Source: Eledone cirrhosa
Taxonomy: Eukaryota
Length of the DNA: 64,000 nucleotides
Direction of reading: 5' to 3'
NCBI GenBank assembly: GCA_964016885.1
Contig: OZ024750.1
Span: forward strand, 49,166,001-49,230,000
Part shown: one piece after another, positions 19,816-56,151 of the stretch
How the letters are laid out: the number at the start of each line of letters is the position of its first letter
Position numbering within the stretch: position 1 is the first letter of the stretch
Made by a program: the position numbers and the translations under genes
The notes under the pieces: model-generated
Told to the model about the DNA's origin: nothing
Databases searched by the model: none
Seen by the model: the letters and a program-made list of their open reading frames with translations, nothing else

Positions 19816-20230
19816 TTATACTTCTCTTGGGTCAGTGTTGTTTGTTTGGGTGTAGTTGTTATTCCATTCATTCTTTCTGTTTAGTTTTGGTCTTCCAATT
19901 TCTATTTCATTGGCCTCTCTGATTTGCCTATCTGCTGAGTCATTTCTATGTTTAGATATACTTCTAATTTCTATGTTGTCTATGTTACCGTCATGTTGTT
20001 GTCTAGCATGTTCGTATAGTACTGACCCGTTTTTTCGTCCTTTTAGTTCCCCCCAGTGTTGGTCTATCCTTTCACCTATGCTACGAGCTGTCTCACCTAT
20101 GTATGTTGTTGTCATGTTTCTGCAAGTACCCTCTGTACATCTTATGCTATAGACTACGTTTCTAGTTTTACAGTTTATCCGGGGGTTCACCTTACATATG
20201 ATACATTTCCTATTGGTACAGTGGGTTTTC
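19816..20230 (-). pseudogene. PLE GIY-YIG endonuclease with Cys-rich linker
   Basis: NVVYSIRC...TTYIGETARS..ERIDQH...RQIREA..I...PKLNRKNEW. Confidence 0.92.
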
Positions 20231-21750
20231 TTAAAAGGGTAGGTTTTATGGTGGTTCCTGGCTTTTCTACCACCTTTATTTTTAAGTGGGTCTTTCTCAG
20301 GGCCTTTCTACACTGGTTAGCTAATTTCCCTCCAGGGGTGGCGTCCACAAACATGACACTCTGATATCTCTGGTTGTCGTACCATGATGTGGCCTTCCCT
20401 ATCTTATGTATAGCCCTATCTAAGCTATTCCATGATTTGCTCCTGTATAGTGGGCAAATTCCTTTCATGTCCAGTTCTATGAGGGTCTTATACTTTTCCA
20501 TGGCTCTTTCGTATAGTCTGACTCTGTCTCTTTGGTTGTAGCCAGAGAACTGCATGCGGTTGATGAAGTGTTGGATGTGTCCTTCCATTTCTGTTGGGTC
20601 GCACATGCTGGACACATTCTTCATCACTCGTACCAAGTCTGCGATCAGAATATTAAACTTAGCACTACTGGACATTGCTGAGTTTTTGAGTATCAGGTAT
20701 TTGGAGGCCATGGGTTTAGCATAGTGTGAGTGGAGAATTTGTGCTCTCTCGTCTATAGTGTTAATCCAGAGTTCTGTGTCTAATACAGGTAGTCTATTGT
20801 TAGGGTGTTTGGAAGGGAAGTCTATAGTTACAGTTATACTCTGGTGTATGGAATTAGCTATCTGCTGGATGTTTTCCATCGTGCTACGTTCTAAATCAAA
20901 CTTGTTAGTGCTCTCTAGTGGGGGTGTTCTTATAACTATATTGATGTCGTCTACATAACGAGAGTACATGATGAGGTCTATGGAGCTTTCATTAAGGAGG
21001 TCTTTAAGTCTCCTTTCCCACCATACCATGAAAAGGTTGGCAACATCACCAGCTATGCTGACGCCGATGGCTGCTCCCTCATTTTGGGTGTAGATGTTCT
21101 CATTAAACTTAAATATGTGGCCCTTTAGGGTAGTTTTTATACTAGCCCCTATTGCATGTGCGACCATTTTTCTTACCTGATAAGTGTTTTGGGGGGTCCG
21201 TATAGCTTTGGTCCACCCAATCCACCTTCCTATGGGAGTCTTTTTAGCCATTGAGGTTATGGTGGGGGGTCTACCTCTTATAGGTCTACTAGGGCAGAAA
21301 CATCTAAGGTCATGGCTGTCTAGGTAGTCAGTGTCGTAGGTAAGTCTAAGTAGGAGGCCCAGTTCGTCTGTGTCGACGTCGCAGAACTCCACCTCACTCT
21401 CAATGATCATCTCCACACATCTTTTCACAGCAAAATCAATGTTAATGGATGGGTACAGTGACACCACATCCATGCTGCCTATTATGCAGTTGGATAGGCT
21501 CCTGTTTTTGTTGCACTCACTGATTCTGCTGAGGAGGTCCTCTGTACTTTCACATACATCTGGGGACATCTTGATTATGGGGTGTATAACCATTGAGAGG
21601 AAGTAGGAGATCCTGTAGTTGCTAGCTATATTAGCTCCGCATACGGGTCTTGTTGGTGGTCCTGTTGTCGGGTCGTCGACTGTCTTGTGGTCTTTGCGGA
21701 GCCCATACAAGGGTGGTATGCCATTGTTAGACGCCTGGAAGTTGTTGGCG
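20187..21750 (-). pseudogene. PLE reverse transcriptase (RT + thumb)
   Basis: Motifs PPLYGLRKDHK..PTRPV, GSMDVVSLYPSI, YTQNEGAAIG, YSRYVDD, LPVLD, HYAKPM. Frameshifted from the endonuclease by a 16-bp deletion. Confidence 0.92.
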
Positions 21751-22344
21751 TAATACAAATAAGTAATCGAGAATCGCAATCTCGGCTCACGAAATAACGA
21801 AACACAATCTTCGACATGCATGGCAGAGGGCTCAATAGTTTGGATAAACCAGAGCTATAACTATCGTTTAAATACCAACACATAGAGACAATGCTTAAAA
21901 TCATTCGTACAGCCGAAAAGACGACCAGGAAAATTCGGGTCACACAAATAATAAATTAATAAATTAATAAATTAAATATATATATGCAGAAGTTATATTT
22001 AATTTGTTGGGATTCCAACAAACTTGAAAATGTATAACTAATATAGAGCAGTCAACTGCTAACTGGAGTAAATATTCAATATATTAATAAATTAATATAT
22101 TAATAAATGGTGTAAATATTCAGTTTATTGGGTGTGTGTATGCTGAACTATCGAGCGAATTTTCAACCGTCGGTTATGTCACTATTTATGAAACACATTT
22201 TGTATTTTATCTGATGAACGCGCACCAAGCTGGCCTTGGTTGCCCTTGAAATATATATAATAAAATAATTATTGTTTTATAAATATAGTATCCATTTATG
22301 AATATATATAAATATATATATATATTATGAATATATATATATTT

Positions 22345-24545: not shown

Positions 24546-24642
<97 letters not shown>

Positions 24643-24644
<2 letters not shown>

Positions 24645-26018
24645 CGAAGGAAATGTGGTAAGGAACCAGGTGGACCATAACGCACCAAAGTACTCAATAC
24701 TTGAGGTAGTAGAGTGGGTAATAGGAACCAGTAAGACCCCGACAGCTATAACACCCCACTTGCCGATTTTGCAATGGGTAACCAGTAAGACCCCGACAGG
24801 CTATAACACCCCACTTGCCGATGTTGCAATGAGTAACCCCTGCTTGCCAAGGAAGACGTAAGATCTTCTTTGTATTCTTTTATCGCTTCCTTTATTTCCT
24901 TCCCCCCTCTCTCCCTAGTCCTTCTACCCCAGCTCTTCTCCTTTGTCGGCGTCTTTTCTCGCCCACCCGAGGCTGCCCTTTGGCCCCATGTAGCCTTAGT
25001 ACCCCCCCCCCCCCCCTCCCCTAGTCTATGATAGATTTGGCGGACTCCGCCCTTTATAGCAGTTGGCTTAGACCCCGGATACTTGCCCCCTTTTTCCGAC
25101 CGCTCCCACTATTCTCTGTGCCCTCTATATTTCTTAGTGGCACTTATGCCTTATTTTTTCGTTTCAGTATTTCTTGCTTCGCTTTTCTTCTGGGCGGGGT
25201 GGATTCTGAATTTATTTCTCCGTATTCTACCTTTATTTCGTACGAACTTTCATGTAGCTTGTTTTCGATCTTTTAGAGTTAGCATTAGTATATATTTTTC
25301 TCGGGACTCAGAATTATTATCTCGTACAAGTTCACTTTGCCGCACTGGGTCGTTGCTGGCCCGGGATGGAAACCTTTATTGTTTATTTCGGGGTAGTCTC
25401 TTTAGTATTTTGGCCCCTTTTGTTGACCCGTCACCGTATCATTTACGTACTTATACCTCTTAAAAGGGTCCTTGCCTAATTCGTCCCACCTAGTTCTTTT
25501 ACTTATTTCGTTATTTCGTTATTTATTTATTTCTTTACTTCTTTCTTTCCTTCTTTATTTTATTCTGCCTAACAATAGCCTGAGACCTAGGTCGTAGTAT
25601 TTAATTTACTTTACTTTTTTCTTTACACTTATTTGCTTTTCTTCACTCTCAGTATTTTTTTTTTTTTTTTTTTTCTTTCCTATTTCTTCCCCCATTGTTC
25701 TACCTACCGTCCCGACTTACTCCCCCTCCCCCTCCCCTGTATCTTCTTTGACCTCATGCCCAGCTGTAGCTGGCACTACCAACGCTTGATTGGGTCTACT
25801 CCACCCCCTCCCCTCTTTCTCCTACTGGCAGGTTTAGCCACCATCTCCCCTACTAATTTGCAACCACAGAATTACTACTGATTTTTGACAATCACTTTGA
25901 CCATATATGGAATTACCCCTTGAGAAGATCGGCTATTTAAATACCAGTATAAATTTTCATTTAGTCCAGAATTAGCCGTCGAGACGGCTTGAGCTCAGCT
26001 GTCGGGGTCTTACTGGTT

Positions 26019-26021
<3 letters not shown>
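24643..26021. mobile_element. PLE-type non-coding element with inverted ends (family C) in (TA)n
   Basis: 24722-24747 is the inverse of 25997-26022; tail 24643-24721 is the inverse of 31385-31464; HHR at 25915-26008. Confidence 0.75.
25915..26008 (+). ncRNA. Type I hammerhead ribozyme motif, U3-A8 variant
   Basis: Stem I ACCCC/GGGGU; core UUGAGAA; stem II GA(U)CGGCUA/UAGCCGUC; GAGA (GAAA in copies at ~31277 and ~31343); stem III ACGGCU/AGCUGU; GUC triplet ending at 26003. Confidence 0.75.
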
Positions 26022-26069
<48 letters not shown>

Positions 26070-29037: not shown

Positions 29038-29299
29038 TATATAAAAGAATAGAGGTGTAACACACGAGTTGTGATATATTAGTAAAAGGAAAAGAAATTG
29101 GTGACAAATTGTTCCCAGTGAAAAATAGTTTAATTAGGAATAAGTAAAAATTAGTAATAAGTATTGGTTAGTATTCAGTTTTAGATTTAAGTTTGTACCC
29201 TTTGCGCATTTCTAATGCTTTTCAAAAATAATTTTGAGATAGAGCGCCCGTGATGTTTGCTCTAATCCGATAAGAGCAAACATCACTAGTGCTCTATCA

Positions 29300-31205
29300 C
29301 AAAATTATTTATACCCCCCAAAACAATTATCAGGTAAGAAAAATGGCCGCACATGCAATATGGGTTAGTATCAAAACTACACTAAAGGGCCACATATTCA
29401 AGTTCAACGAGAATATCTACACCCAAAATGAGGGAGCAGCCATTGGCGTCAGCATAGCGGGTGATGTTGCCTATCTTTTTATGGTATGGTGGGAAAAGAG
29501 ACTTAAATATCTCCTTAATGAGAGCTCCATAGACCTCATCATGTACTCTCGTTACGTAGACGATATCAATATAGATATAAGAACATCCCCACAAGAGAGC
29601 ACTAACAAGTTTGATTTAGTACGTAGCACAATGGAAAGCATACAGCAGATAGCTAATTCCATACACCAGAGTATAACTGTAACTATTGACAACCCTTCCA
29701 AACACCCTAACAATAGACTACCTGTATTAGACACTGACATCTGGATTAACACTATAGACGAGAGAGCCCAAATTCTCCACTCACACTATGCTAAACTCAT
29801 GGCCTCCAAATACCTGATACCCAAAACTCAGCAATGTCCAGTAGGGCTAAGTTTAATATTCTGATCGCAGACTTGGTACGAGTGATGAAGAACGTGTCCC
29901 GCATGTGCGACCCAACAGAAATGGAAAGACACATCCAACACTTCATCAACCGCATGCAGTTCTCTGGCTACAACCAAAGAAACAGAATCAGAGTATACGA
30001 AGGCGCCACGGAGAAGTATAAGACCCTCATAGACCTGGGCATGAAAGGAATTTGCCCATTATACAGGAGCAAATCATGGAATAGCTTAGATAGGGCTAGA
30101 CATTAGATAGGGAATGTCACCTCATGGTACGACAACCAGAGATACAAGAGTGTCATGTTTCTGGAAGCTACCCCTGGAAGGAAATTTGCTAACCAGTGTA
30201 GAAAGGCCCTGAGAAAGACCCACTTAAAGATTATGGTGGTAGAAAAGCCAGGAACCACCATAAAATCCCTGATCAGCAAAACATAACCTTTTAAGAAAAC
30301 CCTCTCTACTAATAGGAAATGCATCATATGTAAGGTAAACACCCGGATAAACTGTAAAACTAGAAACGTAGTCTATAGCATAAGTTGTACAGACGGTACT
30401 TGCAGAAACATGACAACAACATACATAGGCGAGACAGCTCGTAGCATAGATGAAATGATAGACCAAAACTGGGGGGAACTAAACGGACGAAAAAACGGTT
30501 CAGTACTATACGAAAATGCCAGACAACAACACGACGGTTACATAGACAACATAGAAATTAGAATAATATCTAAACATAGAAATGACCCCGCAGATAGGCA
30601 AATCAGAGCGGCCAGTGAAATAGAACTCAGAAGGCCAAGGCTAAACAGAAAAAATGAATCGAATAACAACAACACCCAAACAACAACACTGACCTTAGAG
30701 AAGTATAAATAAATAAATAGATAAATAAATAAATAAATACACAAGCACAATAACAACAAACACATATAAACACACACTAGTAAAGATAGAGTACATTAAC
30801 CAATACGCAGTCACCCAATCACGAACATACATTAAACAAATCACGATACACACACGCAAACGCATGCGCAAAGAAGAAAAAAAAACAAATAAGTAAATAT
30901 ATAAACAGACTAAATAAAGATGGCGTAGAAAATACAATGCAACGGGAGGAAACAATAGCACCACTGACGATGTTGCAGATGTAAGACAAAAGAACTTTGA
31001 TGAATTATATATATGTGTTTGTGTCGATATCGTATCTGTATTTTTGACCGTTGGTCAGTCAATGGCAACATTGAGGACCGAATAAATTAAATTAACCGAT
31101 TTAAAAGACACAGAAGCGAAAAGCGAAAACCAACCAAACAGTGAGTGTGTTCTGTTATTAATTCTGGCAATATTACACAAATATGATCCTCCCCAAGTAT
31201 ACAAT
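29300..31205 (+). mobile_element. Second, more degraded copy of the 19.3-21.7 kb PLE
   Basis: YSRYVDD, LPVLD and TTYIGETARS in frameshifted ORFs; 3' UTR matches copy 1 and ends at (TA)n. Confidence 0.93.
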
Positions 31206-31239
31206 ATATATATTTATATATATATATATATATATATAT

Positions 31240-31462
31240 AGGAACCAGTAAGACCCCGACAGCTGAGTTCAAGCCGTTTCGACGGCTAATTCTGGACTAA
31301 AAAAAAAAAAAAAAAAAAATTTTTAGTCCAGAATTAGCCGTCGAAACGGCTTGAGCTCAGCTGTCGGGGGTCTTACTGGTTCCTATTACCCACTCTACTA
31401 CCTCAAGTATTGAGTACTTTGGTGCGTTATGGTCCACCTGGTTCCTTACCACATTTCCTTCG

Positions 31463-31464
<2 letters not shown>
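31240..31464 (+). mobile_element. Minimal fold-back of family C with poly(A) loop
   Basis: 31240-31302 is the inverse of 31320-31384; 80-nt tail; (TA)n on both sides; carries only the 3' half of the HHR. Confidence 0.8.
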
Positions 31465-31514
<50 letters not shown>

Positions 31515-54086: not shown

Positions 54087-54147
54087 GTTTTTATTAGCCG
54101 AGAATGTTTCGTCCTATTAAGGACTCATCAGGGCAATCAATCAAAAC
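54087..54147 (-). ncRNA. Type I hammerhead ribozyme (inverted copy)
   Basis: GCC-CUGAUGA-GUCCU-UAAU-AGGAC-GAAA-CAUU-CUC-GGC. Confidence 0.7.
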
Positions 54148-56094: not shown

Positions 56095-56151
56095 GTTTTG
56101 ATTGCTCTGATGAGTCCTTAATAGGACGAAACATTGTCGGCTAATAAAAAC
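56095..56151 (+). ncRNA. Type I hammerhead ribozyme, canonical core
   Basis: GCU-CUGAUGA-GUCCU-UAAU-AGGAC-GAAA-CAUU-GUC-GGC; extended stem I GUUUUGAUUGCU / GGCUAAUAAAAAC; predicted cut after 56138. Confidence 0.85.

What the first reader, a model, noticed from the sequence alone, without database searches (positions are those of the whole stretch)
25915..26008. Hammerhead with U3-A8 core, full 6-bp stem III and long stem-II insert
Seen: all three stems pair and the core is UUGAGAA. Loop III holds the palindrome GAGCUC and stem II encloses ~37 nt. Sister fragments at ~31277 and ~31343 show GAAA where this copy has GAGA. Known: the C3-G8 pair can covary to U-A, and PLE HHRs usually have a very short stem III and act as dimers. 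Inference: the family consensus may be a monomer-active HHR that standard CUGANGA descriptors would miss.
Basis: partly seen in the sequence, partly recalled or inferred. Interest (0 to 1): 0.75.

Follow-up and report, generated by a model that had tools for sequence, protein, structure and literature searches.

The report
Penelope hammerhead with fossil cut marks
This is a likely dead copy of a self-cutting RNA motif carried by a very abundant animal jumping gene; its unusual core is already known, but hundreds of the family's genomic copies start exactly at the predicted cut site, which suggests the RNA does cut itself in living cells.

Summary
The motif is real: a type I hammerhead (UUGAGAA core, three stems) at the 3' end of a Hydra-clade Penelope-like retroelement. 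The genome holds 5,383 5'-half and 55,071 3'-half matches. This copy's GAGA is a sporadic A14G change (1.4% of copies differ there) and is probably inactive. U3-A8 cores in Penelope hammerheads are published (Cervera 2014), so the headline is not new; Rfam does miss even an intact copy. Within the family positions 3 and 8 do not covary: about a quarter of copies carry a C3·A8 mismatch. 'Monomer-active' is not shown: the sixth stem-III pair is recent, the palindromic loop is invariant, and a swapped fold competes. The stronger result lies outside the finding. In 19 of 50 unselected short two-armed insertions both arms can begin exactly at the predicted cut (26003|26004), 14 with untemplated bases between them. 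Genome-wide, that base is used about 6-fold more than the two upstream neighbours. This looks like a fossil of cleavage in vivo in a minority of templates. The scan noted this family on another piece of this genome, and similar footprints in other genomes.

The parts
24800..26021 (+). 5'-truncated arm of a Hydra-clade Penelope-like element: the 1.2-kb 3' UTR/pLTR, starting just after the ORF end and ending at the 'short' 3' end
   Evidence: Aligns end to end with genomic copies, whose upstream ORF has RT and C-terminal GIY-YIG
24642..24747 (-). Inverted second arm of the same insertion, carrying the ~85-nt tail ('long' 3' end) and reaching 7 nt past the cut site
24748..24799 (.). Short duplicated junction piece between the two arms (includes a 20-nt inverted copy of the cut-site region, 24780-24799)
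25915..25919 (+). Stem I 5' strand (extension 25909-25914 pairs with 26015-26020)
25920..25926 (+). Core U3 U4 G5 A6 G7 A8 A9; position 7 is G/U/A/C across subfamilies, position 3 U or C, position 8 A (G in one small old subfamily)
25927..25980 (+). Long stem II: G10.1-C11.1, 6-bp helix, internal loop and distal hairpin (25947-25967, weakened here by G25948T)
   Evidence: three subfamily-level compensatory pairs
25981..25983 (+). G12 A13 G14: A14G change of this copy; predicted to pair G14 with C17
25984..26002 (+). Stem III (5 conserved pairs + 1 recent pair) with invariant palindrome GAGCUC at 25991-25996
26003..26004 (+). Predicted cut site C17|G1.1; genomic copies pile up starting at G1.1
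26004..26008 (+). Stem I 3' strand
26020..26069 (.). (TA)n target microsatellite (also left of 24642)
31239..31465 (.).

Best explanation
This is a likely inactive (A14G) copy of a type I hammerhead motif with a U3-A8 core at the 3' end of a Hydra-clade Penelope-like retrotransposon, and intact copies likely cut their own RNA after C17 in a few percent of the templates that get inserted. Shown: the element, its clade motifs, the family consensus, and the pile-up of insertion ends at the base after C17. Inferred: the element's reverse transcriptase starts from two sites downstream of the ribozyme (one arm with, one without the tail). When the RNA has been cut it runs off the new 5' end, adds a few untemplated bases, and the two arms are joined. 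Most templates are uncut and truncate further upstream, inside stem II. Cleavage is probably slow and gated: stems II and III share sequence, so a swapped, inactive fold competes. The invariant palindromic loop III probably lets two RNAs pair into the dimer form known from other Penelope hammerheads, although stem III is long enough to fold alone.
For: Element and clade: ORF with RWR, DKT, CxCX5C, YIG, CxxC, CxH as defined for Hydra (PMC8557442); (TA)n target. Constraint: between oldest and youngest subfamilies the hammerhead+tail block is 78-80% identical while the upstream UTR gave no BLAST alignment in the output seen. In the nine subfamily consensuses, core positions 4,5,6,9,12-17 and G10.1-C11.1 are unchanged while N7 varies. 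Three stem-II pairs change on both sides (covariation score 0.090, 0 of 500 shuffles; swapped fold 125 of 500). Footprint: in 50 unselected short two-armed insertions 38 of 100 arms start at G1.1. In the 24 with untemplated bases, 34 of 48 arms do and none starts at -1 to -9. 14 have both arms there and 5 more are blunt joins of the same kind. Genome-wide, about 750 junctions at +1 against about 120 at -1, 120 at -2 and 215 at +2 (fractions read by eye from the first 100 listed). 49 of 50 events have one long and one short arm, as expected from two start sites (PMC11167929). Ribozyme-cut ends with untemplated bases are known for R2 (PMC3774820). Dimer: the loop palindrome is unchanged in all nine consensuses; dimer gain is -13.9 to -16.5 kcal/mol against -5.4 to -7.4 for shuffled loops (1-15 of 500 as good; four subfamilies tested).
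Against: No cleavage assay. Relative to an internal control (microhomology joins) the footprint is not weaker in subfamily groups rich in C3·A8 (41:7, 38:8, 15:5; Fisher p 0.78 and 0.32). A strictly 3-8-dependent cut would predict a drop, though the groups mix U-A and C·A masters and the counts are small. All three compensatory pairs fall on one branch, so they are one lineage split, not independent events. RNAalifold did not recover the hammerhead fold from the 30-copy alignment. Folding z-scores are weak (-0.4 to -2.3). In the best-studied Penelope element no RNA reads ended at the cut site and ribozyme mutants inserted normally (PMC11167929). One earlier scan note judged such a footprint only mild in another genome (e1-9850483).
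Confidence: 0.6

Rival explanations
1. One reading: the family is a self-sufficient monomer ribozyme thanks to the full stem III, and the palindrome is incidental.
For: Stem III folds alone at -4.9 to -7.1 kcal/mol. For subfamily A and F consensuses the three-stem monomer is 72% and 96% of sampled structures. Fungal Penelope hammerheads with a large helix III cleave as monomers (PMC4209133). The cut-site footprint fits this rival equally.
Against: The palindrome is invariant while its flanks change. The swapped fold dominates in B-E and G (57-83%) and is 49% in H. Subfamily A (best monomer fold of the pair) has 14 both-arm cut-site events per 1,000 read-through arms against 30 for B (46 of 99 typed hits are B-type, 29% expected, p=2e-4).
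Confidence: 0.22
2. The motif is a catalytic relic kept as a protein-binding or RT-pausing structure; the pile-up at G1.1 comes from a polymerase stop or a cellular nuclease at the helix junction.
For: A master lineage with a C3·A8 mismatch made about a quarter of the full copies and another had U3·G8 (28 of 80 non-A8 copies). The footprint does not track the 3-8 state. More than 95% of arms read through the site (estimate about 4% start there). Cleavage is dispensable for PAc insertion in vitro.
Against: A stop at the base of stem III would leave arms starting at C17 (-1) and a stop on entering stem I at +5; the peak is at +1, the hammerhead cut position. The lineage appears to have returned from C·A to U-A. 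The rest of the core is unchanged across the lineage.
Confidence: 0.15
3. Chance resemblance: a repeat end that happens to read like a hammerhead.
For: Folding energy of this copy is ordinary (z -1.0); no Rfam hammerhead hit.
Against: It sits where Hydra-clade elements carry their hammerhead (PMC8557442 file S2); N7 is free while its neighbours are fixed; stem II shows compensations; junctions peak at the cut site.
Confidence: 0.02

Closest known systems
Hydra-clade Penelope-like elements and their hammerheads (Craig et al. 2021, PMC8557442; passages, section 11, supplementary files S1/S2 and alignment passages read)
   Same: C-terminal GIY-YIG, RW[KR], DKT, CxCX5C linker, CxxC/CxH, (TA)n targets, type I hammerhead near the 3' end, motifs close to Hydra-1_Obim by eye.
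   Different: All 26 Hydra rows of file S2 have CUGANGA, a 3-4-bp stem III with a 1-3-nt loop and a short loop II. This family has U3-A8, a 5-6-bp stem III with a 7-9-nt palindromic loop, a branched ~54-nt stem II and a 1.2-kb 3' UTR.
U3-A8 min-HHRs of Schistosoma Cercyon PLEs (Cervera and de la Pena 2014, PMC4209133; parts 1-2 of 4 read) and natural U3-A8 cores (Perreault et al. 2011, PMC3088659; passages read)
   Same: U3-A8 core missed by CUGANGA descriptors, long helix II, short helix I, palindromic helix III region.
   Different: Those lack a real helix III; here it is a stable hairpin with a palindromic loop, and the lineage passed through U·G and C·A states.
PAc Poseidon element of Anolis (Frangieh et al. 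2024, PMC11167929; part 1 of 4 and passages read)
   Same: Two RT start sites giving tailed and untailed ends; uncut RNA is the main template.
   Different: No RNA reads ended at the cut site there; here genomic junctions peak at it.
R2 HDV-like ribozyme 5' junctions (Eickbush et al. 2013, PMC3774820; passages read)
   Same: Insertion ends match the ribozyme cut site and carry untemplated bases.
   Different: R2 uses an HDV-like ribozyme at its 5' end on every insertion; here a hammerhead near the 3' end marks only a few percent of arms.

Membership tests
Hammerhead ribozyme, type I | Three helices round a junction, stem I open | tested here: met
   (consensus folding by RNAalifold did not recover it)
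Hammerhead ribozyme, type I | Core with paired positions 3 and 8, UGA, A9, GAA, A15.1-U16.1, H17 | tested here: met
   Met by the family majority (U3-A8, GAAA); not by this copy (A14G) nor by C3·A8 and U3·G8 subfamilies
Hammerhead ribozyme, type I | 3-8 covariation within the family | tested here: not met
   Position 3 and 8 change singly; 5 of 80 non-A8 copies are C3-G8, all sporadic
Hammerhead ribozyme, type I | Match to an Rfam hammerhead model | tested here: not met
Hammerhead ribozyme, type I | Site-specific self-cleavage after N17 | tested here: inconclusive
   Indirect genomic footprint only; no assay possible
Hammerhead ribozyme, type I | Loop II-stem I tertiary contact | not testable with these tools
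   Stem I bulge and stem II internal loop both vary between subfamilies; no conserved pairing seen by eye
Hydra-clade Penelope-like element | RT with C-terminal GIY-YIG; RWK, DKT, CxCX5C, CxxC and CxH motifs | tested here: met
   RWR, DKT, CNCPDRSIC, YIG, CNLC, CKH, YRDD in L038; definition. Pfam gave no hit for the L039 ORF
Hydra-clade Penelope-like element | (TA)n targeting, inverted 5'-truncated arm, optional tail | tested here: met
Hydra-clade Penelope-like element | Placement in an RT phylogeny | not tested
   Only motif comparison and a by-eye look at the published alignment
Dimer-type Penelope min-HHR | Helix III too short to form alone | tested here: not met
   5-6 bp, -4.9 to -7.1 kcal/mol
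Dimer-type Penelope min-HHR | Palindromic helix III/loop 3 | tested here: met
Non-LTR retrozyme | Non-coding tandem monomers | tested here: not met
   Family has an RT-EN ORF and occurs as inverted pairs

The most novel reading that the evidence does not exclude
The genome holds a base-precise fossil record of a non-canonical Penelope hammerhead cutting in vivo: hundreds of insertions were copied from self-cleaved RNA, often with both arms from cut ends. The footprint persists through master lineages with a C3·A8 mismatch, so in cells this ribozyme may work without the 3-8 pair thought essential, switched on by dimerisation through its palindrome rather than by its monomer fold. Junction counts per subfamily would then be an in vivo activity assay across evolutionary time.
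Probability: 0.3. Interest if true: 0.75.

Novelty: new variant of a known kind. Interest (0 to 1): 0.52.

Why it matters
Whether Penelope hammerheads cut in cells is open. The discovery paper had no in vivo evidence (PMC4209133), and the one reconstituted element showed no reads at the cut site and did not need cleavage (PMC11167929). A sharp junction peak at the predicted base, with untemplated additions, makes the question testable from genome sequence alone and suggests cleavage is a side route for a few percent of templates. The family also shows that descriptor and Rfam searches miss an abundant hammerhead. Its subfamily ladder (U-A, U·G, U-A, C·A, U-A at positions 3 and 8) is a ready-made set of natural variants for an assay.

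Tried and rejected
Taking the 30 best BLAST hits as the family suggested GAGA was common; this was ranking bias, corrected by unbiased patterns. Naiad or Neptune assignment rejected on domain order and motifs. A canonical C3-G8 ancestor in this genome was not found: the oldest subfamily reached is already U3-A8 and G8 copies are sporadic or one small branch. No RNA holder listed, so expression was not examined; the two read layings were contigs of runs of unrecorded kind and only echoed allele frequencies and the step in depth inside stem II. Pfam found nothing for the element ORF. RNAalifold gave a different fold; its alignment is poor at the 3' end. Constrained partition-function probabilities were faulty (one value above 1) and were replaced by sampling. 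Eight copies were dropped as misassigned before the subfamily consensuses were made. The tree is midpoint-rooted and includes truncated copies with unrelated flanks; subfamily age order rests on its ladder and on copy divergence (1.1% to 7.5%), with no outgroup test. Subfamilies D (U-A) and E (C·A) cannot be told apart in cut-site junctions. Lunse et al. 2017 was not held and was not read; it may describe similar variants. Paper searches that did not turn up a report of Penelope insertions beginning at the hammerhead cut site: (listings only); subscription papers are not covered. No protein, structure or complex jobs were needed.

Full report
Observation. The motif is as described: stem I 25915-19/26004-08, core UUGAGAA, stem II 25927-35/25973-80 round 37 nt, GAGA, stem III 25984-89/25997-26002 with loop UGAGCUC, C17 at 26003. 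The minimum-energy fold has all three stems, but its energy is ordinary (z -1.0). Rfam finds no hammerhead here or in an intact GAAA copy, while it does give weak hammerhead hits for another family at 54093 and 56101.

The element. The motif ends a 1.2-kb stretch (24800-26021) with an inverted, tailed second arm (24642-24747), set in (TA)n. Longer genomic copies have an RT ORF with a C-terminal GIY-YIG domain upstream. Its motifs RWR, DKT, CxCX5C, CxxC and CxH are those defining the Hydra clade (PMC8557442 section 11). The host is a 3.0-Gb animal genome, probably a cephalopod by inference. The 'sisters' at 31.2-31.5 kb are the two arms of one insertion truncated inside stem II.

Family consensus. 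The genome has 5,383 matches to the 5' half and 55,071 to the 3' half with GAAA, against 769 with another base at position 14. So A14G is sporadic. In this copy G14 is predicted to pair with C17 (free core in 1% of sampled folds against 56% for the subfamily consensus), so the copy is probably dead. The tenfold excess of 3' halves is truncation: 23 of 30 unselected copies break 0-17 nt upstream of the stem II 3' strand.

Positions 3 and 8. I sorted 131 full copies into nine subfamilies; copy divergence runs from 7.5% (I) to 1.1% (A, this copy's). The inferred order is I (U-A), H (U·G; 28 of 80 non-A8 copies), F (U-A), G/E (C·A; 1,486 copies with non-U at 3, 97 of 100 listed C), then D, C, B, A (U-A) (midpoint root only). 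No C3-G8 subfamily was found. U3-A8 is therefore the long-term state, but the two positions change singly. U3-A8 itself is published for Penelope hammerheads (about 1,300 in Schistosoma, PMC4209133) and for other natural hammerheads (PMC3088659). All 26 Hydra rows in the 2021 supplement have CUGANGA and a 3-4-bp stem III, so this is a new variant within that clade.

Constraint. Oldest versus youngest: hammerhead plus tail 78-80% identical, upstream UTR at noise level. Other core positions are fixed, N7 is free. On 30 real copies the hammerhead fold has three pairs changed on both sides by a whole subfamily (score 0.090, 0 of 500 shuffles); the swapped fold has none (125 of 500). These three lie on one branch, and RNAalifold did not recover the fold. 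One of them is in a distal hairpin, so the 'insert' is structured.

Monomer or dimer. Stem III folds alone, but its sixth pair is recent (16 of 30). The loop palindrome is unchanged in all nine consensuses and roughly doubles the predicted dimer gain over shuffled loops. Stems II and III share sequence, and a swapped hairpin that buries GAAA is predicted to dominate in B-E and G, but not in A or F. If monomer folding set activity, A should show more cut-site junctions than B; it shows about half as many (14 vs 30 per 1,000; 53 A-type, 46 B-type and 1 other among the first 100 of 130 hits, read by eye; p=2e-4). This leans to the dimer, weakly.

Footprint of cleavage. A pattern for element sequence beginning at G1.1 gave 967 sites; 25 of 30 inspected were true junctions and 5 were G-run expansions. 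An unbiased pattern for short two-armed insertions gave 811 events; I measured the first 50. 38 of 100 arms start at +1. In the 24 events with untemplated bases, 34 of 48 arms start at +1, 5 at +2 and none at -1 to -9. Both arms start at +1 in 14 events, and 5 more read as blunt +1/+1 joins (also readable as a 2-base microhomology at -1). Genome-wide, after removing G-run changes and blunt joins by the share seen in the first 100 listed, junctions number about 750 at +1, 120 at -1, 120 at -2 (scaled) and 215 at +2. About 4% of arms start at the site. A polymerase stop at stem III would give -1, not +1. Untemplated bases at ribozyme-cut ends are known from R2 (PMC3774820). 49 of 50 events pair a tailed with an untailed arm, matching the two start sites of PAc (PMC11167929).

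Against. Raw rates fall from 9.9 to 3.2 to 1.7 per 1,000 in older groups, but microhomology control joins fall in step, so the footprint does not visibly weaken in groups rich in C·A (p 0.78, 0.32). Either C·A still cuts, the mixed groups hide the effect, or the peak has another cause. For PAc no reads ended at the cut site. No RNA run was available.

Earlier scan notes. One note describes this same family on another piece of the genome (seen, after the Hydra assignment). Three notes from other genomes discuss cut-site arms, two in favour and one against (after my). They are leads, not support.

Verdict. Real hammerhead motif of a known kind in a new architectural variant; this copy degenerate; headline core change already known; monomer claim unproven. 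The value is the base-precise junction peak, which I did not find in print (searches; Lunse 2017 and subscription papers not seen).

Noticed in passing
window 19816-21854 (-) and 29274-30712 (+): Another Penelope-like element (RT plus GIY-YIG with a CxxC-type linker) lies as two long inverted arms, 91-93% alike, around the insertion studied here.
   Followed up: no
window 54093-54137 (-) and 56101-56145 (+): Canonical CUGAUGA/GAAA type I hammerheads of a different family at the outer ends of a 98-99% inverted repeat; Rfam 27-28 bits, below threshold.
   Followed up: no
genome-wide; window 25955-25975 equivalent: About 90% of arms truncate within ~20 nt upstream of the stem II 3' strand, often joined at small palindromes of the distal hairpin; this may be the main route of two-arm joining.
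   Followed up: partly
subfamily A, window 25928 and 25999-26000 region: The two changes that mark the youngest subfamily both shift the predicted balance from the swapped fold to the hammerhead fold, yet it shows fewer cut-site junctions than its predecessor.
   Followed up: partly
tail, window 31385-31465 and 24642-24722: The ~85-nt tail is better conserved between oldest and youngest subfamilies (92-95%) than the ribozyme itself, suggesting a protein-binding or start signal.
   Followed up: no
L202, L205, L210, L217: Insertions with one arm starting at the cut site and the partner reading through it to stem II: either two RNA molecules were used or the cut fell between the two syntheses.
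   Followed up: no
window 5935-6574, 8148 onward and further arrays: Large arrays of a 20-bp minisatellite.
   Followed up: no
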